Assembly: GCA_041743505.1 (NCBI GenBank)
Contig: JBGTMQ010000019.1
Location: 6,147-70,146 of the forward strand
Origin: Candidatus Saccharimonadia bacterium
Lineage (GTDB): Bacteria > Patescibacteriota > Saccharimonadia > UBA4664
Reading direction: 5' to 3'
DNA: 64,000 nucleotides
This document shows positions 1 through 28,931 of the stretch, piece after piece. Numbering within the stretch: the first letter of the stretch is position 1; each line of letters starts with the position of its first letter. The notes below the pieces were generated by a model that worked only from the letters and a program-made list of their open reading frames with translations, ran no database searches and had not been told where the DNA came from. The translations under genes and the position numbers were made by a program.

Positions 1-1386
1 GGCTGGGCGTACAATGATCGAGTCAATAGCCCAATGATGAAAGAATGGCTCGGCAAAGTCGTAGGAGGTGAGGGCGAAGACTTAACCAGACACGACAAGT
101 GGCTTTGTATGATGCTGCCACGCCTTAAACTCCTCCGGGAACTATTGACTGAAGATGGCGCGATATTCATAAGTATTGATGACAATGAACAGCACAATCT
201 GCGAACCCTTATGGACGAAATCTTTGGAGACCAGAACTTCGTTGCTAGCATTGTTTGGCAAAAGAAGTACTCGCCCCAGAACGATGCACGGCATTTTTCG
301 GCAATGCATGAATACGTAGTGGCATACGCAAGAAGTATCGACAAATGGCAGAGAAATCTAATGCCAAGAACTGCAAAGCAGGATGATGCCTATAAAAACC
401 CCGATAATGATTCAAGAGGTCCGTGGAAGCCCAGTGACCTAACACGAGCCGAGCATCGTGATCGTGATTACTACGTCATAACCACACCGTCCGGAAAAGA
501 AGTACTCCCTGCTAAAGGCAGGAGCTGGAGCAGGCCTGTAGATGAAATAAAGCGACTACGCGAAGATAATCGTCTATGGTTCGGAACGAGGGGAGACTCA
601 ATACCGTCCCTTAAGAGATTCTTATCTGAAGTCAAGGAAGGTGTGGTGCCTGTCACGCTATGGTTCCAAGATGATGTCGGGAGCACTGACTCTGCAATGA
701 AAGAACTTAAGAGCATATTCGATGGGAACGGTCAGATTGAGACCCCGAAGCCTTCCACACTTATTCGTAGAGTTATACAGCTCGCTACAGATCCCAACGA
801 TATTATCCTAGATTCATTCGCTGGATCAGGCACAACAGCCCATGCGGTTTTAGCCGCAAATAAAGAGGATGGCGGAAATCGAAAGTTCGTTCTGGTTGAA
901 ATGGAAGATTATGCCGATAAGATCACCGCTGAACGGGTACGACGCGTCATAAAAGGAGTGCCCGATTCGCGTAACGATCTACTGAGACAGGGTCTGGGTG
1001 GCACGTTCAGCTACTTTACTCTCGGCAAGGCTATCGAAACCGAAAGCCTATTAAGTGGCAAACATTTACCGAGCTATGAAGAACTTGCTAGATATGTTTT
1101 CTACACCGCCACAGGCGAAGACTTTGACCCATTTAAGCTTAATGAAATTAAGCATTTTGCTGGATCAAGCAGCTATCATGATGTATACGTCTACTACAAA
1201 CCAGACCTCGAGTATCTCAAAAGCACAGCCTTGACGCTTGATGAAGCTCGCCGCTTACGCAAAGAAGTGGGAGATCGACCGCTACTGGTATTCGCACCAA
1301 CTAAGTACATCGAGCAAACCGAATTGGATAATCTCAAAATAAGCTTTTGCCAACTGCCCTTTGAGATATATAAATTGAAGGTATAA
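1..1386 (+). CDS. mod: Type III restriction-modification DNA methyltransferase (Mod), N-terminus likely truncated by window edge
   Basis: N6/N4 DNA-methylase domain with the AdoMet-binding motif DSFAGSGTTAHAV. The gene ends 6 nt before a Res-type helicase ORF, which is the classic Mod-Res order. The ORF abuts the window start. Confidence 0.8.
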   Translation, partial: GWAYNDRVNSPMMKEWLGKVVGGEGEDLTRHDKWLCMMLPRLKLLRELLTEDGAIFISIDDNEQHNLRTLMDEIFGDQNFVASIVWQKKYSPQNDARHFSAMHEYVVAYARSIDKWQRNLMPRTAKQDDAYKNPDNDSRGPWKPSDLTRAEHRDRDYYVITTPSGKEVLPAKGRSWSRPVDEIKRLREDNRLWFGTRGDSIPSLKRFLSEVKEGVVPVTLWFQDDVGSTDSAMKELKSIFDGNGQIETPKPSTLIRRVIQLATDPNDIILDSFAGSGTTAHAVLAANKEDGGNRKFVLVEMEDYADKITAERVRRVIKGVPDSRNDLLRQGLGGTFSYFTLGKAIETESLLSGKHLPSYEELARYVFYTATGEDFDPFKLNEIKHFAGSSSYHDVYVYYKPDLEYLKSTALTLDEARRLRKEVGDRPLLVFAPTKYIEQTELDNLKISFCQLPFEIYKLKV

Positions 1387-1392
1387 TCCGCT

Positions 1393-3918
1393 ATGGAGCT
1401 AAAAGAATACCAAAAGAAAGTTGTAAACCGCCTCAGCGAATACTTGCAGGCTCTTAGCACTGAAAAAAACCGCTATGAGCGGCTGAACGCCGTTGAGCCA
1501 GACCTTGCCGCCGAATTCAACTATCCCAAACGAGCTTGGGAGACAATCGGGCTACGCAATTACCACTCAGCGGTGAACGGCATCAACCAACCCTTGCCAC
1601 ACCTCTACTTCAAAGTGCCTACTGGCGGAGGTAAAACACTACTTGCATGTCACGCGGTTGATCTAATCCACAAGCTCTATTTACAAAAGCAGCACGGCCT
1701 TGTCCTGTGGATCGTACCAACCACACAGATTTACCGCCAAACTCTCAAAAGCCTGCGTGACCGTCACCATCCATACCGTCAAGTACTCGATGTATCTAGT
1801 GGTGGGCGCACAATGATCTTAGAAAAACTAGATCAATTTAACGTTGACGACGTAGCTAGTAACCTTTGCGTGCTCTTACTCATGTTGCCCTCAGCTTCTC
1901 GTCAGACCAAAGAAACGCTCAAAGTATTCAAGGACAATACCGGCTACACTAGCTTTTTTCCTGCCGAAGATGCGTACAAGCTCCAGAAAGAGCTTCTAGA
2001 CAAATATCCCAACTTAGACACCTTTAGCGAGAGTGATGGTCTTTTTGGGCACATACCAAAAACGTCACTTGGCAATGCCCTCCGAATGCTAAGGCCAATA
2101 ACAATCGTCGATGAAGGTCATAAGGCATATTCGGAGATGGCCCGAAGCACTATTTACGGCTTTAACCCCAGCTTTGTGCTTGAACTATCTGCAACGCCTC
2201 CCGAAAACACCAATCGCCTCGTCGCCATTACGGGCCGTGAGCTGAATGATGAGCAGATGATTAAGCTCGATCTACATCTGATTAATAAAAATACTTCTGA
2301 CTGGCAAGACACCATGAATGAAGCGGTTGCATGGCGGGCCGAACTTGAGCAAAAAGCCAAAGAGTACGAGCAAAACACTAATAACTACATCCGCCCAATC
2401 ATGCTCGTACAGGTTGAGAGAACTGGCAAAGATCAGCGAGACGGCAAGTTTATTCATGCCGAAGACATCCGCGAATACCTGATAAAGCAATGTATGATTC
2501 CGAATGAGCAAATCGCCGTCAAGTCTTCTGATAAAGACGAGATTGAGAATATAGACCTGTTAGAACGTGGCTGCCATATTCGCTTCATTATCACCAAACA
2601 GGCACTACAAGAGGGCTGGGATTGTCCTTTCGCCTATGTACTTACTGCACTTACTAAATCTCAATCCGAAACGGCCATGACACAACTTATTGGCCGTGTA
2701 TTGCGTCAGCCCTACGCCCGCAAGTCCGGCATAAAAGAACTTGACGAGTGTTACGTATACTCTTTCCAGCACGACACCGCAAAGCTCGTTGGTGGGATTA
2801 AAAAAAATCTAGAGGGCGAAGGCCTGGGTGATGTAATCGGCCGCATCAATGTTGAGTCAGATGGTGACGAGAATCCAGACTATGAACCAGAAAGAACCCT
2901 GCGCTACCGGAAGCAATTCAAGAAGTTTGAAGGCCGCGTATATTTGCCAGTATTCGCGATTGAATCAGAAAGCTCATGGCGTGAACTGAGCTATGAGACC
3001 GATCTACTTGGCCGGCTCGACTGGTCAAAGGTTGACCTGTCAGCTATAGACTCGCTCAGCCTAGAGCAGCGCACCGTAGATGATGATATTCGGGCCTTGG
3101 GGTATGGCGCTAGCGGGGAGCTAGACATGACAGCGCAGCAAGAGCGATCATTTGAGTCAGAACTGAGTGACGAATATGTGACACGCCAGATTATCGATAT
3201 CGTGCCTAACCCGTGGCTCGCATATGGTGTGGCGCGGGACTTTCTAATCAGACTTCAAAAACGCTATGACAAAGAAATTGTAGCTTCAAATTTAGTGTAC
3301 GCAGTCGAACGGCTTAAAAGTCTCTTATTTGAGCAACGCAATATACTATCTGAGCAAGTATTTCGCAAACTCCTAAAAGGAGGCACATTGCGCTTCTACT
3401 TATTGAAAGGCGCCAGTCATTCAATGATCCCTAGTAGTATCACTATGCAAACCAGACGACGCTTGACCCACGCGGACGGTGAGCAGATACAAGCCAGTCT
3501 GTTTGATTATATCCCAGCCGAGAGTATCAACGGACTAGAGGAAGAAGTGGCTTTATACCTGGATCGTCAGCAAAAGCTACTGTGGTGGTATCGCAATATG
3601 GCCAAAGCTGATTATCGCATTCAGGGTTGGAAACCCGGTCGGGTGTATCCGGACTTTATTACGGCCGCGAAAGCCGAGGACGAAACGACTTACGATAAAC
3701 TTTATGTCCTCGAAACCAAGGGCGAACATCTGTTGGGTAATGAAGACACAGAGTATAAGCGGCAGTTACTAGAACTTTGCAACGAGCAAGCGGTTGAGAA
3801 AAATTGGCAGGAGCTTGATCTTGGTTTTGGTGAGTCAGATTTTGTATTTCAGATGGTCAATGAAGATGGCTGGAAATCACAGCTTAGTGGTCTGCTGGCT
3901 AATAGCGATAAGGCCTAG
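1393..3918 (+). CDS. res: Type III restriction endonuclease Res subunit (SF2 helicase/nuclease)
   Basis: Walker A motif PTGGGKTLLA and DEGH box (IVDEGHKA). Length of 841 aa and position immediately after Mod. Confidence 0.8.
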   Translation: MELKEYQKKVVNRLSEYLQALSTEKNRYERLNAVEPDLAAEFNYPKRAWETIGLRNYHSAVNGINQPLPHLYFKVPTGGGKTLLACHAVDLIHKLYLQKQHGLVLWIVPTTQIYRQTLKSLRDRHHPYRQVLDVSSGGRTMILEKLDQFNVDDVASNLCVLLLMLPSASRQTKETLKVFKDNTGYTSFFPAEDAYKLQKELLDKYPNLDTFSESDGLFGHIPKTSLGNALRMLRPITIVDEGHKAYSEMARSTIYGFNPSFVLELSATPPENTNRLVAITGRELNDEQMIKLDLHLINKNTSDWQDTMNEAVAWRAELEQKAKEYEQNTNNYIRPIMLVQVERTGKDQRDGKFIHAEDIREYLIKQCMIPNEQIAVKSSDKDEIENIDLLERGCHIRFIITKQALQEGWDCPFAYVLTALTKSQSETAMTQLIGRVLRQPYARKSGIKELDECYVYSFQHDTAKLVGGIKKNLEGEGLGDVIGRINVESDGDENPDYEPERTLRYRKQFKKFEGRVYLPVFAIESESSWRELSYETDLLGRLDWSKVDLSAIDSLSLEQRTVDDDIRALGYGASGELDMTAQQERSFESELSDEYVTRQIIDIVPNPWLAYGVARDFLIRLQKRYDKEIVASNLVYAVERLKSLLFEQRNILSEQVFRKLLKGGTLRFYLLKGASHSMIPSSITMQTRRRLTHADGEQIQASLFDYIPAESINGLEEEVALYLDRQQKLLWWYRNMAKADYRIQGWKPGRVYPDFITAAKAEDETTYDKLYVLETKGEHLLGNEDTEYKRQLLELCNEQAVEKNWQELDLGFGESDFVFQMVNEDGWKSQLSGLLANSDKA

Positions 3919-21242: not shown

Positions 21243-21318
21243 TGGTGGGCCCGGCTGGACTTGAACCAGCGACCAAGCGGTTATGAGCCGCCTGCTCTAA
21301 CCACTGAGCTACGGGCCC
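21243..21318 (-). tRNA. tRNA with CAT anticodon, Ile2 (lysidine)-like
   Basis: Cloverleaf: GGGCCCG acceptor stem, D-arm GCTCAGTGGTTAGAGC, anticodon loop CTCATAA, T-arm GGTTCAAGTCC, encoded CCA. Sequence closely resembles enterobacterial tRNA-Ile2 (ileX) as recalled from memory. Confidence 0.75.
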
Positions 21319-22907: not shown

Positions 22908-23027
22908 TTATTAGCATACTCCAAGCCTTACCCAAGCTCAAACATAAGCCGGTAGTTTGCTGACAAAGGGCCGGTCCACCTATGAAAACTTGCCATTACG
23001 AATCTAATACTGTATAAGTGTGTCAGC

Positions 23028-23450
23028 ATGAATAAAGCGCTTTCCTCAATCTATCAACACATCGCTCCGGCCCACCGCGCGATTTGGCGCTTTGGCATAT
23101 TGCTATGGCCTGGTTTCTTCTGGAAATATGCTTTGGCATCGGGCAGTTATAAGCCGGAGAGCTTTTTTTCATTTGTCGTGGTGGTTTATCTGGGACTTGA
23201 ACTGGCAAATATTATCCACGAATACCAACGCCCTCGACCGGATAAACTTGGCGTGTCCCAATCTTCCAAAGAATTTATAAAATCATTAATCTGGATTCAC
23301 GGGAGCTTTACGATCGTTTGTCTGGTTATCCAGCGTGATCATCTCCTGACCAGCTTACCTTGGCTAGCACTAATATGGCTTGTCGCAGTAGGAGCTTATT
23401 TCCTCCGCCCCAAGCCAATAACTGACAGCCCAAAATTTGCTATTGCATAG
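23028..23450 (+). CDS. Small membrane protein, tandem paralog 1 (YxHIAPAHRAIWR family)
   Basis: Leaderless start directly after a TGTATAAGT -10 element. Conserved N-terminal motif SIYQHIAPAHRAIWR followed by 3-4 TM helices. Confidence 0.6.
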   Translation: MNKALSSIYQHIAPAHRAIWRFGILLWPGFFWKYALASGSYKPESFFSFVVVVYLGLELANIIHEYQRPRPDKLGVSQSSKEFIKSLIWIHGSFTIVCLVIQRDHLLTSLPWLALIWLVAVGAYFLRPKPITDSPKFAIA

Positions 23451-23471
23451 TAATTAATGTATAATATAATT

Positions 23472-23867
23472 ATGGACCAAACCATTTCTACCGCTTACAA
23501 ATATATCGCTCCGGCCCACCGGGCGATCTGGCGACTAGATATTATTTTCTGGCTTGGCATTATCTTCTGGTACGCCAACAATCCGGGTTACCGTACCCTG
23601 GCGGACGCGCAGGTATATTATTTATTTGTCATCATACTCAGCATTTATCATGTTGTGTCAGAGTATCGGCATCCGCGCCCAAATGAACTGGGGCTCTCTG
23701 CACCAAATGAGGCGAGGTATTGGTTCGCAGGATTTGCCGTTATTATTACAGTGCTTTTGTTGCTTGTTAACGTGATGATGAATAAACAAAGTGATTTGTT
23801 ATGGCTTCTAATGGCATTAGCCGCTACGGGTGTAGCCTACACTATCCGTCCGAAGCCGGTAGCTTGA
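23472..23867 (+). CDS. Small membrane protein, tandem paralog 2
   Basis: Start ATG immediately after TGTATAATATAATT. Motif TAYKYIAPAHRAIWR. Confidence 0.6.
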   Translation: MDQTISTAYKYIAPAHRAIWRLDIIFWLGIIFWYANNPGYRTLADAQVYYLFVIILSIYHVVSEYRHPRPNELGLSAPNEARYWFAGFAVIITVLLLLVNVMMNKQSDLLWLLMALAATGVAYTIRPKPVA

Positions 23868-23915
23868 AGTCCTAAATTTGCCTTTACAAAGCTAACACTG
23901 TATAAGTGCATCAGC

Positions 23916-24311
23916 ATGAACCAGACGCTTTCCTCAATTTATCAATACATTGCTCCGGCCCACCGGGCGATCTGGCGCATGCCTATCTTTTTGTGGCTTA
24001 CCTTAATCTTCTGGTATGCGAATAACCCGGATAAATGGACTATTTGGGGCCCCCTGGAATACATTGTCCTTTTTCTCGGCTTTAGTATTTATTATATTGC
24101 CTCAGAATTCCGCCATCCTCGACCAGCCGATCTAGGCTTCTCTGGTGGAAATGAGGCGAAATACTGGTTTATCGGAGTTGCTGTATTAGGCATGGGAGTA
24201 TCGGTCCTTATTAACGGACTCTTGCAAGAGCAAAACGGCTTGCTATGGCTTCTGCTCGCATTAGCTGCCACCGGTGTAGCCTACGCTCTCCGTCCGAAGC
24301 TCAAAACTTGA
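23916..24311 (+). CDS. Small membrane protein, tandem paralog 3
   Basis: Start after TGTATAAGTGCATCAGC. Motif SIYQYIAPAHRAIWR. Confidence 0.6.
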   Translation: MNQTLSSIYQYIAPAHRAIWRMPIFLWLTLIFWYANNPDKWTIWGPLEYIVLFLGFSIYYIASEFRHPRPADLGFSGGNEAKYWFIGVAVLGMGVSVLINGLLQEQNGLLWLLLALAATGVAYALRPKLKT

Positions 24312-24342
24312 CAATCACAGTATAAGCACGTACCATAATATA

Positions 24343-24366
24343 TGCCGGGAAAGCCCGGTGTTTTTT
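24343..24366 (+). terminator. Intrinsic terminator after the paralog array (GCCGGGaaaGCCCGG + T6)
   Basis: Hairpin + T-run, preceded by a fourth partial copy of the paralog promoter (CAGTATAAGCACG). Confidence 0.6.
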
Positions 24367-24397
24367 CACATCCATCCGACATCTATTGGGGGCTGAA

Positions 24398-25621
24398 ATG
24401 ATTCAGCGCAGGATTGGCATTAGCATAGCGGCTTTAGTGGCCGCGGTTTTTATGATTGTCCTGGTAGGAAGAAGTTCAGTATTTGCGAATGCTGCTGACA
24501 ACACGCCAGATGTGGAGTCCTTCGACTCTACCTATATCTATAACCAGATCGTTAACCATAAGTTACCGATTCAGGCGGATGACCAGCCCACATACGTCCC
24601 GGGGTGGGGCCGCTACTATACAGGCACTAACGGGCTAGAGCTTCGGTTTAACCGCGCTGGCACCCTAAAAGCCACGCAGCTCAACTTCTTGATCGATAGC
24701 GCTATTATAGGCACAGTCATAGTGCGTGCTTCGGGTGCTGTTACGGCCGGCGGTAGCGTTTCGCTACTAAGCGATGTGGTATTGTCATCCATAACGCCGG
24801 CAAAGCTCAAGGGGGCTGCCGGTATAGCAGCTGCCGCAACGGGAATCATTATTAGCAATGAACTCTTCCAAGATGCTCTCAAAGACGACTGCATCGGAGT
24901 AACCATCCCAAATCGGGATGCGCTTAATCAGATACTCACCCGGGTAGACGCACTGGCACAATTGGGTGTGCTCCTCAAGCTCACTGAGGACCCCAGCCTC
25001 AATGACGTCTGGCGGGCTAACCTGGCAATGCTGAGTATTCCTTATGCCAACGCTGATATCCGGGTCTGGTTCGAGCCGTGTACTCCGGGTGACAAGGCAA
25101 GTGATATTGTGACCACGCCTCCGCCCCCGGTTGCTGACACGCAGCCAGTGGTCAAGGCAGAGCCCATTCCTGCTCCCGTCCAGAAGGCTCAGCCGGTACA
25201 GGCATCGTCAACACCCGCGCCAGCAGCTCCGCCGGCCCCGCCACCCGCTCCGGTGCACAATGAGGCGGTTAGTACGCCAAATGATGTCTGCTGGACGCCA
25301 GGGCCGGACTACAGGACTTATGTGAAGCCCTGGGACCATAGTTATCTGTGGTTTTTCGTTCGGGAGCATGGACCGACCACCCAAATCCAAACCCCTACCT
25401 GGCGGCATTGGACGCAGAACACCGATGGGGAATACCGACTAGAGGGCCAATACAAGGACTCAGGCGGCAACGACATGTGGTCAGAAGGCGACTTCTTCTC
25501 GGCTCCGTTCTGGACCGGCATGGACCAGTCGGAACAAAACAACCAGCTAGAAGCCTATGATCAGCTCAGGAATAGCTGGGGACATCACATGAACGCAATC
25601 AACAACGCTCCTCAATGCTGA
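24398..25621 (+). CDS. Secreted/membrane-anchored protein with Pro-rich linker
   Basis: RBS GGGGGctgaaATG. N-terminal signal/TM, then a PAPVQKAQPVQASSTPAPAAPPAPPPAP linker and a Trp-rich C-terminal domain. Confidence 0.5.
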   Translation: MIQRRIGISIAALVAAVFMIVLVGRSSVFANAADNTPDVESFDSTYIYNQIVNHKLPIQADDQPTYVPGWGRYYTGTNGLELRFNRAGTLKATQLNFLIDSAIIGTVIVRASGAVTAGGSVSLLSDVVLSSITPAKLKGAAGIAAAATGIIISNELFQDALKDDCIGVTIPNRDALNQILTRVDALAQLGVLLKLTEDPSLNDVWRANLAMLSIPYANADIRVWFEPCTPGDKASDIVTTPPPPVADTQPVVKAEPIPAPVQKAQPVQASSTPAPAAPPAPPPAPVHNEAVSTPNDVCWTPGPDYRTYVKPWDHSYLWFFVREHGPTTQIQTPTWRHWTQNTDGEYRLEGQYKDSGGNDMWSEGDFFSAPFWTGMDQSEQNNQLEAYDQLRNSWGHHMNAINNAPQC

Positions 25622-25725
25622 TGGGCTGGCCGGTGATGAACGAAAGTTCGTTACCGGTCTTTTTAGTTCCTAGCCAGCGCAACATGCCTTGACCAGCGGC
25701 CGAATTCCTGCTAAATTGTTCAGGT

Positions 25726-25800
25726 TGACGCGGGGTGGAGCAGTGGCAGCTCGTTGGGCTCATAACCCAAAGGTCGTAGGTTCGAATCCTGCCCCCGCTA
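25726..25800 (+). tRNA. Initiator tRNA-fMet (CAT)
   Basis: C1 mismatched with position 72. Three consecutive G-C pairs in the anticodon stem (GGG/CCC), loop CTCATAA, T-loop TTCGAAT, CCA encoded. Promoter TTGACC-17-TAAATT at 25688-25716. Confidence 0.8.
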
Positions 25801-25814
25801 CCAAGCAATTATCA

Positions 25815-28856: not shown

Positions 28857-28931
<75 letters not shown>

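What the first reader, a model, noticed from the sequence alone, without database searches (positions are those of the whole stretch)
23011..24366. Tandem triplication of a leaderless small-membrane-protein gene with conserved N-terminal motif IAPAHRAIWR
Three roughly 440-bp units lie head-to-tail. Each has a TGTATAAGT/TGTATAATA -10 element immediately followed by ATG (leaderless mRNA). Each encodes a 131-140 aa protein with an invariant S-I/A-Y-x-x-IAPAHRAIWR motif and 3-4 TM helices. A fourth promoter copy precedes the terminator. Paralogs are about 45-60% identical, consistent with diversifying selection. Such arrays are typical of bacteriocin-immunity or CPBP-like families, but this motif is not one I recognise.
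Basis: seen in the sequence. Interest (0 to 1): 0.6.

Follow-up and report, generated by a model that had tools for sequence, protein, structure and literature searches.

The report
Triplicated membrane gene with exported partner
Three diverged tandem copies of a small four-helix membrane protein from a very rare, unannotated family sit next to a gene for an exported protein that accompanies this family in most loci examined, in Saccharibacteria-like and actinomycete genomes; the pair looks like a new "exported effector plus membrane immunity or docking protein" cassette, but its function is untested.

Summary
Three head-to-tail genes (23028-23450, 23472-23867, 23916-24311, + strand) repeat with an exact 444-bp period. 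Each has its own TTGCxx-17-TATAAx promoter 6-9 nt from the ATG and no Shine-Dalgarno. Each encodes a 131-140 aa protein with the IAPAHRAIWR motif. Identities are lower than stated: 54% for g2/g3, 30-38% with g1.

No Pfam, NCBIfam, PADLOC, PHROG or PDB match exists for the family. It is very rare: about 28 clusters among 1.84 billion representatives.

The main new result is a partner gene. In 11 of 13 distinct loci the small gene lies beside an exported protein (here 24398-25621). That protein has a signal peptide, a conserved N-domain, a Pro-rich linker and a variable C-terminal domain. Small-gene copy number varies from 1 to 3. The cassette occurs in Saccharibacteria-type contigs and in high-GC actinomycete-type contigs (Nonomuraea confirmed), often near mobile-element or toxin genes.

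CPBP membership is rejected. Short or absent leaders are common in this genome.

Best guess, by inference only: membrane immunity or docking proteins for the exported partner.

The parts
22931..22959 (+). Short remnants resembling the 3' ends of g3 (CCCAAGCTCAAA) and g2 (AAGCCGGTAGTTTG), upstream of the first copy
   Evidence: repeat families D4 and D5 (92-93% identical to 24294-24305 and 23853-23866). These are short two-copy matches and could be chance.
22990..23018 (+). Promoter of g1: TTGCCA (22990-22995), 17 nt, TATAAG (23013-23018); 9 nt to the ATG; no Shine-Dalgarno
   Evidence: Sequence. The same layout occurs in 8 small genes of 5 loci.
23028..23450 (+). g1, 140 aa, the most divergent paralogue. 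It keeps all family motifs. Its 3' end runs over the -35 of the g2 promoter.
23437..23465 (+). Promoter of g2: TTGCTA-17-TATAAT; 6 nt to ATG 23472
   Evidence: (10 of 12 matches)
23472..23867 (+). g2, 131 aa. Its 3' end (23816-23858) carries a cluster of 6 SNPs relative to near-identical contigs L003/L004; at 4 of the 6 the window allele matches g3.
23878..23906 (+). Promoter of g3: TTGCCT (23878-23883), 17 nt, TATAAG (23901-23906); 9 nt to the ATG
23916..24311 (+). g3, 131 aa, the copy next to the partner gene; 55-58% identical to the orthologues in L005 and L008
24308..24336 (+). Promoter-like element of the partner gene: TTGACA-17-TACCAT.
   Evidence: TTGACA-17-TAnnnT is conserved in L001, L005, L008 and L010.
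24342..24367 (+). GC hairpin plus T-run (intrinsic-terminator-like) between the array and the partner gene. The structure is conserved with different arm sequences in other loci.
24388..24392 (+). GGGGG Shine-Dalgarno of the partner gene
24398..25621 (+). Partner gene, 407 aa (P0007). It has an N-terminal signal peptide with an invariant RR and an AxA site, a conserved N-domain (Y.QIVNH.IP.Q.D..PTY..G..Y.G..G.E.R.N ... C.G.TIP ... WFEPC), a Pro-rich linker and a variable C-terminal domain.
25628..25659 (+). Terminator-like hairpin after the partner gene

Best explanation
The three genes are old tandem paralogues that still exchange sequence. They belong to a new family of N-in/C-in four-helix inner-membrane proteins and form a functional cassette with the adjacent exported modular protein.

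Proposed mechanism (inference): the small proteins are made constitutively. Each has its own promoter and an mRNA with little or no leader, and a terminator insulates them from the partner gene. They sit in the producer's membrane as immunity proteins. There they bind and neutralise the membrane-associating conserved N-domain of the exported partner through contacts within the membrane.

The partner itself is separately transcribed. It is exported through its signal peptide and uses its variable C-terminal domain, held out on a Pro-rich linker, to bind a target cell surface. Extra diverged copies would widen protection to variants made by related strains.

Shown here: gene structure, promoters and terminator by sequence, topology by prediction, linkage, copy-number variation, distribution, and gene-conversion footprints.

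Inferred only: any physical interaction, any toxicity, and the immunity role.
For: 1. Linkage. The small gene is adjacent to a homologue of the partner in the window (L003 and L004 are the same locus), L001, L005, L008, L010, L006, L007, L009/L011, L015/L016, L012 and L013. That is 11 distinct loci. Gene order is reversed in Nonomuraea. Distances within the two families correlate (r about 0.6 using g2 or g3).
2. Copy number is 3, 2 or 1. Lone small genes with no visible partner occur in L002 and L014. In L001 the partner is split into two ORFs while both small genes are intact.
3. The partner has a hydrophobic signal peptide with an AxA site, a 60-70 aa semi-hydrophobic Ala/Gly/Ser/Val-rich stretch, two conserved Cys, a Pro-rich linker and at least three unrelated C-terminal domain types.
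4. Small-protein topology. K+R counts are 3.4 (N-terminus), 2.7 (loop 2) and 2.8 (C-terminus) against 0.9 and 0.5 for the outer loops. The outer loops are the least conserved parts.
5. Separate promoters for each small gene, and a conserved hairpin plus T-run before the partner gene.
6. The distribution is very sparse and patchy. The representative search gave 30 hits in 1.84 billion, of which 2 are spurious repeat translations, leaving about 28 clusters. Only one of 185,579 species representatives carries the partner.
7. Neighbours elsewhere include T4SS genes (L005), an integrase (L006), a resolvase (L007), a protein with a faint TrwB_AAD_bind match (possible conjugative coupling protein) in L009, and an SCP1.201-like deaminase toxin with Imm1 and PIN in L015.
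8. Footprints of gene conversion between paralogues.
Against: - Neither protein resembles any toxin, immunity, holin or anchor family by sequence: Pfam, NCBIfam, PADLOC, PHROGs and PDB sequences.
- The AF2 models are unusable (pLDDT 61 and 38) and the fold search returned nothing.
- The best-conserved parts of the small protein (HRAIWR, EYRHPRP, LRPRP) face the cytoplasm. An intramembrane immunity role does not explain that.
- The small gene lies upstream of the partner and tracks its conserved N-domain, not its variable C-terminus. This is unlike classical polymorphic toxin-immunity pairs.
- One C-terminal domain type is a repeat that I judged propeller-like from the sequence alone. That looks more like a binding or adhesin domain than a toxin.
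- In the Saccharibacteria-type loci some neighbours are cell-envelope or division genes (DivIC and bactofilin here; FtsW in L010; SLT, FtsA and FtsZ in L001).
Confidence: 0.35

Rival explanations
1. Surface-display module. The partner is a wall-spanning adhesin or binding protein. Its conserved N-domain docks on the small membrane protein after signal-peptide cleavage, and the Pro-rich linker carries a variable binding domain to the cell surface. For an epibiont this could serve host attachment.
For: The partner combines a signal peptide, a Pro-rich linker and variable C-terminal domains, one of them a ~40-aa repeat that looks propeller-like by eye. The small gene tracks the partner's N-domain rather than its C-terminus. 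The Saccharibacteria-type loci sit among envelope and division genes.
Against: Three diverged anchors for one cargo, lone small genes without a partner (L002, L014) and a split partner beside intact small genes (L001) are hard to explain. The outer loops of the small protein are only 5-10 residues long and poorly conserved. The cassette is far too rare to be a general attachment device.
Confidence: 0.28
2. Holin-like or export-helper protein paired with a secreted cell-wall hydrolase, analogous to holin-endolysin or CidA/LrgA-murein hydrolase pairs. The small protein would control the activity or release of a wall-active enzyme that has a C-terminal wall-binding domain.
For: A small polytopic protein with a basic cytoplasmic C-tail lies next to a secreted two-domain protein with a linker and a variable C-terminal domain, the layout of bacteriolysins and endolysins. 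An integrase or resolvase is nearby in L006 and L007.
Against: No PHROG hit and no match in phage records or IMG/VR contigs. There is no hydrolase, LrgA or holin Pfam match. No phage genes surround the window locus. The partner already carries its own signal peptide.
Confidence: 0.1
3. The small protein is a small membrane enzyme or transporter acting at the cytoplasmic face, for example on a lipid-linked envelope precursor. It is linked to the exported protein only through a shared pathway such as envelope modification, which could itself provide resistance.
For: The invariant or near-invariant residues are polar and lie on the cytoplasmic face: H16, R17, W20, R21, E64, P68, Y123, R126, P127. 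Both halves end in similar Y..RP(R/K)P motifs.
Against: No similarity to any known small membrane enzyme or transporter family. The internal-repeat test is not significant (hhalign probability 13%). No other pathway gene is conserved nearby.
Confidence: 0.12

Closest known systems
Immunity proteins of pore-forming colicins (Cai, Cbi, ImmE1 type), from my own knowledge of the family
   Same: They are small inner-membrane proteins (about 110-180 aa) with 3-4 TM helices and cytoplasmic termini. They are encoded next to an exported modular toxin and have their own constitutive promoter. They act through helix-helix contacts inside the membrane.
   Different: There is no sequence or profile similarity. 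Here the membrane-associating candidate domain is N-terminal rather than C-terminal. The genes are co-oriented and upstream. There are up to three paralogues. The partner uses a Sec/Tat-type signal peptide.
Polymorphic toxin systems with arrays of (orphan) immunity genes
   Same: A modular exported protein has a conserved N-part and swappable C-terminal domains. Adjacent small genes vary in copy number. The distribution is patchy and the cassette sits in mobile or conflict islands; L015 lies beside an SCP1.201-like deaminase with Imm1.
   Different: The small genes lie upstream and co-vary with the conserved N-domain, not with the variable C-terminus. They are membrane proteins rather than soluble immunity proteins. 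No known toxin domain is detected.
   Same: Polytopic membrane proteins that are often found next to bacteriocin loci and are sometimes duplicated.
   Different: No Pfam match at E up to 10 or in any of 28 family members. There are only 4 TM helices in 131 aa. The EExxxR, FxxxH and HxxxB motifs are absent.
Holin / CidA-LrgA-like proteins with adjacent murein hydrolases
   Same: Small multi-TM proteins with a basic C-terminal tail, lying next to a secreted two-domain protein.
   Different: No PHROG or Pfam match. No phage context. The partner has no recognisable hydrolase domain.

Membership tests
CPBP/Abi intramembrane protease (PF02517) | Match to the Pfam model, with conserved EExxxR, FxxxH and HxxxB motifs on about 6-8 TM helices | tested here: not met
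   No hit at E <= 10 for the three proteins or at E <= 0.1 for 28 family members. There are four TM helices only, and the motifs are absent from the alignment.
Tandem paralogue array produced by gene duplication | Head-to-tail homologous units with significant pairwise similarity | tested here: met
   Exact 444-bp period. BLASTP E = 1e-18 to 4e-18, and 54% identity for g2/g3.
Leaderless mRNA genes | Transcription start at, or within a few nt of, the start codon; no Shine-Dalgarno | tested here: inconclusive
   The -10 hexamers end 6-9 nt before the ATG and no SD is present. The layout is conserved in 8 genes of 5 loci. No transcription start data are available, so a 0-3 nt leader is inferred.
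Pore-forming-colicin-type membrane immunity proteins | Sequence or profile membership in a known immunity family | tested here: not met
   No Pfam, NCBIfam or PDB sequence match.
Pore-forming-colicin-type membrane immunity proteins | Protects the producer against the adjacent exported membrane-active toxin | not testable with these tools
   This needs expression and killing assays. Only the adjacency (11 loci) and the 4-TM N-in/C-in topology are shown.
Polymorphic toxin-immunity pair | The immunity gene lies immediately downstream of the variable C-terminal toxin domain and co-varies with it | tested here: not met
   The small gene is upstream in 10 of 11 loci. It occurs with three different C-terminal types, and with a partner that has no C-terminal domain at all (P0045).
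Holin / LrgA-CidA | Match to holin, LrgA or PHROG models, or a phage lysis-cassette context | tested here: not met
   No PHROG hit at E <= 0.1, no LrgA hit, and no phage or IMG/VR match.
Anti-phage defence systems (PADLOC) | Match to any PADLOC model | tested here: not met
   0 families for 8 proteins at E <= 1.

The most novel reading that the evidence does not exclude
The cassette is a previously unrecognised contact or secreted weapon-and-shield system exchanged between Saccharibacteria (obligate epibionts) and their actinomycete hosts. The exported partner would be a new membrane-active effector, targeted by swappable surface-binding domains. The HRAIWR/EYRHPRP four-helix proteins would be a new class of membrane immunity protein, and the triplication here would be an immunity repertoire against variants.
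Probability: 0.15. Interest if true: 0.8.

Novelty: new variant of a known kind. Interest (0 to 1): 0.5.

Why it matters
Both proteins define families with no annotation and no detectable relatives in any curated library. They nevertheless form a conserved two-gene unit in two very different kinds of genome: low-GC Saccharibacteria-type contigs and high-GC actinomycete-type contigs. Saccharibacteria live as parasites on Actinomycetota, and recent work shows active antagonism between them (PMC13622651). A shared, patchily distributed cassette of an exported protein and a membrane protein, often sitting near mobile or conflict genes, is therefore a concrete candidate for a host-epibiont or strain-strain interaction module.

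If that is wrong, it is still a clean example of a new small membrane protein family with a defined partner. It is directly testable by co-expression.

Tried and rejected
- **Curated libraries.** Pfam, NCBIfam, PADLOC, PHROGs and PDB-sequence profile searches for both families gave only sub-threshold, inconsistent hits.
- **Structure.** AF2 with the available shallow alignments gave pLDDT 61 (small protein) and 38 (partner). A Foldseek search of the small-protein model against PDB gave nothing with E < 1. No fold search was run on the partner model because it is too poor.
- **Genome representatives.** The first scan with the strict APAHRAIW pattern found nothing. The 28-sequence alignment was too diverse to derive search patterns. 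The partner alignment found only Nonomuraea sp. NPDC050790.
- **Other collections.** The metagenome scan gave two more loci. Phage records, plasmid records and IMG/VR gave no matches.
- **Hairpin covariation.** RNAalifold on a MAFFT alignment of the intergenic hairpins found no consensus because the arms were out of register. Single-sequence folds show a clean hairpin in four loci, a less clean one in L015 and only a weak one in L001.
- **Internal duplication.** A test of the small protein as two 2-TM halves gave hhalign probability 13%, which is not significant.
- **Long hits.** Two long proteins from the representative search (P0033, P0034) are translated tandem repeats, so they are spurious.
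- **Taxonomy.** Exact-sequence cluster look-ups named only L001's S21 cluster, as Candidatus Saccharibacteria. The window itself and L006, L007 and L015 remain unnamed.
- **Selection.** dN/dS between paralogues was not attempted because 54% or lower amino-acid identity means synonymous sites are saturated.
- **Literature.** No paper describes this family, and the sample accessions are not cited in any held paper.
Full report
**1. Observation**

The region contains three co-oriented ORFs at 23028-23450 (140 aa), 23472-23867 (131 aa) and 23916-24311 (131 aa). The repeat finder gives a three-copy family with start-to-start spacing of exactly 444 and 444 bp.

The proteins align over their whole length. 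They share the block IAPAHRAIWR and two further motifs, E-Y/F-R/Q-H/R-P-R-P..LG.S and AY..RPK. Identities are 54% (g2/g3), 36-38% (g1/g3) and 30-31% (g1/g2). BLASTP E-values are 1e-18 to 4e-18 even for the weakest pairs.

**2. Expression signals**

Each gene is preceded by a sigma-70-like promoter:
- g1: TTGCCA-17-TATAAG.
- g2: TTGCTA-17-TATAAT, which the scanner also picked up.
- g3: TTGCCT-17-TATAAG.

The -10 hexamer ends 9, 6 and 9 nt before the ATG, and there is no Shine-Dalgarno. The same layout (TTGCxx-17-TATAAx, mostly 9 nt to the ATG) precedes the homologous genes in L001, L002, L005 and L010. -10-like hexamers (some weak) also lie 4-13 nt upstream of the ATG in four of the five high-GC homologues examined; the fifth, L014, has no clear one. 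A transcript with no leader or a 0-3 nt leader is therefore a reasonable inference, but it is unmeasured.

This layout is not special to the family. Several unrelated genes in the window (starts at 1393, 21352, 26659, 38572, 50682) show the same -10-next-to-ATG arrangement. Only about 15 of 41 gene starts examined have a clear SD, and those starts were picked naively, so the figure is rough.

**3. The 'fourth promoter' and the terminator**

Downstream of g3 lie TTGACA(24308-13)-17-TACCAT(24331-36), then a GC hairpin with a T-run (24342-24367), then ACATCC, GGGGG and the ATG of the next gene at 24398.

The whole arrangement recurs upstream of the orthologous downstream gene in L005, L008 and L010, in a weaker form in L001, and partly in L015. 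It consists of TTGACA-17-TAnnnT, a hairpin whose arms differ in sequence, a T-run, ACATC and an SD. It recurs in loci with a single small gene. It therefore belongs to the downstream gene and is not a relic of the triplication. Why a terminator-like hairpin follows the promoter rather than preceding it is unexplained.

**4. The family**

None of the three proteins, nor any of 28 family members, matches a Pfam, NCBIfam, PADLOC or PHROG model or a PDB sequence in a consistent way.
- The word-indexed search of 5.8 billion proteins returned only the three window proteins and two others.
- An exhaustive HMMER search of 1.84 billion cluster representatives returned 30 hits. Two of them are spurious repeat translations.

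The family signature is HRAIWR at the N-terminus, EYRHPRP..LG.S after TM2, WPW at the start of TM4 and AYLLRPRP at the C-terminus.

AF2 secondary structure (low confidence, pLDDT 61) and hydropathy give an N-terminal helix plus four TM helices. K+R counts are 3.4, 2.7 and 2.8 for the N-terminus, loop 2 and the C-terminus, against 0.9 and 0.5 for loops 1 and 3. This gives an N-in/C-in topology. All conserved motifs face the cytoplasm, and the outer loops are the least conserved parts.

**5. The partner**

In every longer contig the small gene is adjacent to a homologue of the window gene at 24398-25621 (P0007, 407 aa):

| Locus | Small genes | Partner |
|---|---|---|
| Window (L003 and L004 are the same locus) | 3 | P0007, 407 aa |
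| L001 | 2 | split into two ORFs |
| L005 | 1 | P0040 |
| L008 | at least 1 (contig end) | P0043 |
| L010 | 1 | P0044 |
| L006, L007 | 1 each | P0042, P0041 |
| L009/L011 (Nonomuraea sp. NPDC050790) | 1, order reversed | P0045, 187 aa, N-domain only |
| L015/L016 | 1 | 458 aa with a repeat-containing C-terminus |
| L012, L013 | 1 divergent EYRY-type membrane protein each | present |

L013's small protein hits the family HMM at E = 1e-4. L012's does not hit the HMM; it was placed by the shared EYRY motif and its position only.

Two loci, L002 and L014, show no partner on the short sequence available.

The partner has these features:
- A strongly hydrophobic signal peptide with an RR that is conserved in all homologues except the L015 partner, and an AxA site.
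- A conserved N-domain.
- A 60-70 aa Ala/Gly/Ser/Val-rich region of borderline hydrophobicity.
- Two conserved Cys.
- A Pro-rich linker.
- At least three unrelated C-terminal domain types.

It matches no curated family, and its AF2 model is unusable (pLDDT 38). Distances within the small-protein and partner N-domain families correlate moderately: r is about 0.6 with g2 or g3 and about 0.4 with g1.

**6. Distribution and context**

L001's ribosomal protein S21 falls in a 90% identity cluster named Candidatus Saccharibacteria. L005 carries a T4SS with PrgI and VirB2-like pilins, as described for Patescibacteria (bioRxiv 10.1101/2025.01.22.634366). The window's closest homologues are in these contigs, which come from the same sequencing runs. 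A Saccharibacteria origin for the window is therefore likely but not shown directly.

The high-GC loci (61-63% GC) include a named Nonomuraea genome. Only that genome among 185,579 species representatives matched the partner patterns. Nothing matched in the phage, plasmid or IMG/VR collections.

Neighbours elsewhere include:
- T4SS genes (L005).
- An integrase (L006).
- A resolvase (L007).
- A protein with a faint TrwB_AAD_bind match, possibly a conjugative coupling protein (L009).
- An SCP1.201-like deaminase toxin with Imm1 and a PIN protein (L015).

In the Saccharibacteria-type contigs the neighbours differ from locus to locus and include envelope and division genes.

**7. Evolution of the array**

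A neighbour-joining tree places g2 and g3 in one clade with the single-copy Saccharibacteria-type genes (83% support for the clade). L001_g1 groups with P0009 as a separate old branch. g1 is a long branch outside that clade. The copies are therefore old, not a recent triplication.

g1 and g3 are nevertheless 78-89% identical in DNA across the promoter and first ~25 codons, and 20-55% identical elsewhere.

Two independent assemblies of the same strain (L003, L004; 99.8-99.9% identical to the window) differ from the window at 8 and 6 positions. Six of these fall within 43 bp at the 3' end of g2. At four of those six the window allele equals g3. Both patterns are what gene conversion between paralogues produces. 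Assembly chimerism across repeats is the alternative.

**8. Interpretation**

These points together fit an exported-effector plus membrane-immunity cassette best:
- The strict linkage to an exported modular protein.
- Variable copy number.
- Lone small genes without a partner.
- An apparently disrupted partner beside intact small genes.
- Separate promoters with an insulating terminator.
- A sparse, patchy distribution, often near mobile or conflict genes.
- A variable outer face on the small protein.

The closest analogue is the set of 3-4-TM immunity proteins of pore-forming colicins. That comparison rests on my own knowledge of the family; no homology was detected.

The fit is imperfect. 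The conserved face of the small protein is cytoplasmic. The small gene tracks the partner's N-domain, not its variable C-terminus. At least one C-terminal domain looks like a binding module. A surface-display or docking role is nearly as likely. Holin-like and enzyme or transporter roles are less likely.

CPBP membership is rejected. No step of any proposed mechanism has been tested.

**9. Verdict**

The finding is real and the family is new to the curated libraries. The most useful result is the conserved partner gene and the two-group distribution. Function remains inferred. Interest is moderate (0.5).

Noticed in passing
window 24308-24397; also L005 10409-10494, L008 442-534, L010 1077-1156, L001 2352-2450, L015 6455-6512: A consensus-like promoter (TTGACA-17-TAnnnT) is followed within 5-8 nt by a GC hairpin with a T-run, then a conserved ACATCC, then the SD and ATG of the partner gene. 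This promoter-then-terminator order is conserved across loci while the hairpin arms differ in sequence. It could be a 5' stabiliser or an attenuator.
   Followed up: partly
window 23816-23858 versus L003/L004: Six of the eight differences between the window and a 99.9% identical 8-kb contig cluster in 43 bp at the 3' end of g2. At four of them the window allele equals g3. This is a likely gene-conversion tract, or an assembly chimera across the repeat.
   Followed up: yes
window 22931-22959: Two short matches to the 3' ends of g3 and g2 lie just upstream of the g1 promoter. They may be remnants of an earlier copy, or chance.
   Followed up: no
window 21243-21318 (-), 25729-25803 (+), 28857-28931 (+): All three CAT-anticodon tRNA genes found in the window lie within 8 kb, and two of them bracket the segment holding DivIC, bactofilin, the array and the partner. 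I presume they are initiator Met, elongator Met and Ile2, but did not check their identities.
   Followed up: no
window gene starts at 1393, 21352, 26659, 38572, 50682: Several unrelated genes have a TAnnnT hexamer 5-11 nt upstream of the ATG and no Shine-Dalgarno. Short or absent leaders therefore seem common in this genome.
   Followed up: partly
window 34-3918: A DNA methylase (N6_N4_Mtase) followed by a ResIII helicase-type subunit, which looks like a type III restriction-modification pair.
   Followed up: no
L001 2448-3505: The partner homologue is split into two overlapping ORFs (170 and 182 aa), with the break inside the conserved C.G.TIP region, while both adjacent small genes are intact. 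This is either a pseudogene or a sequencing error.
   Followed up: partly
L015 3612-5781: An SCP1.201-like deaminase toxin, an Imm1 immunity protein and a PIN_4 protein lie immediately upstream of the small-gene/partner cassette in this high-GC contig.
   Followed up: no
L011 4889-5902 and L013 2-613 (-): A homologous protein of about 300 aa (sequence ...LKEALALAFWYKKDLR.FL...) lies near the cassette in two otherwise different high-GC loci. It has only faint, sub-threshold Pfam matches.
   Followed up: no
window 23437-23450: g1 has lost the stop position used by g2 and g3. It reads 9 codons further, so its 3' end overlaps the -35 element of the g2 promoter.
   Followed up: partly
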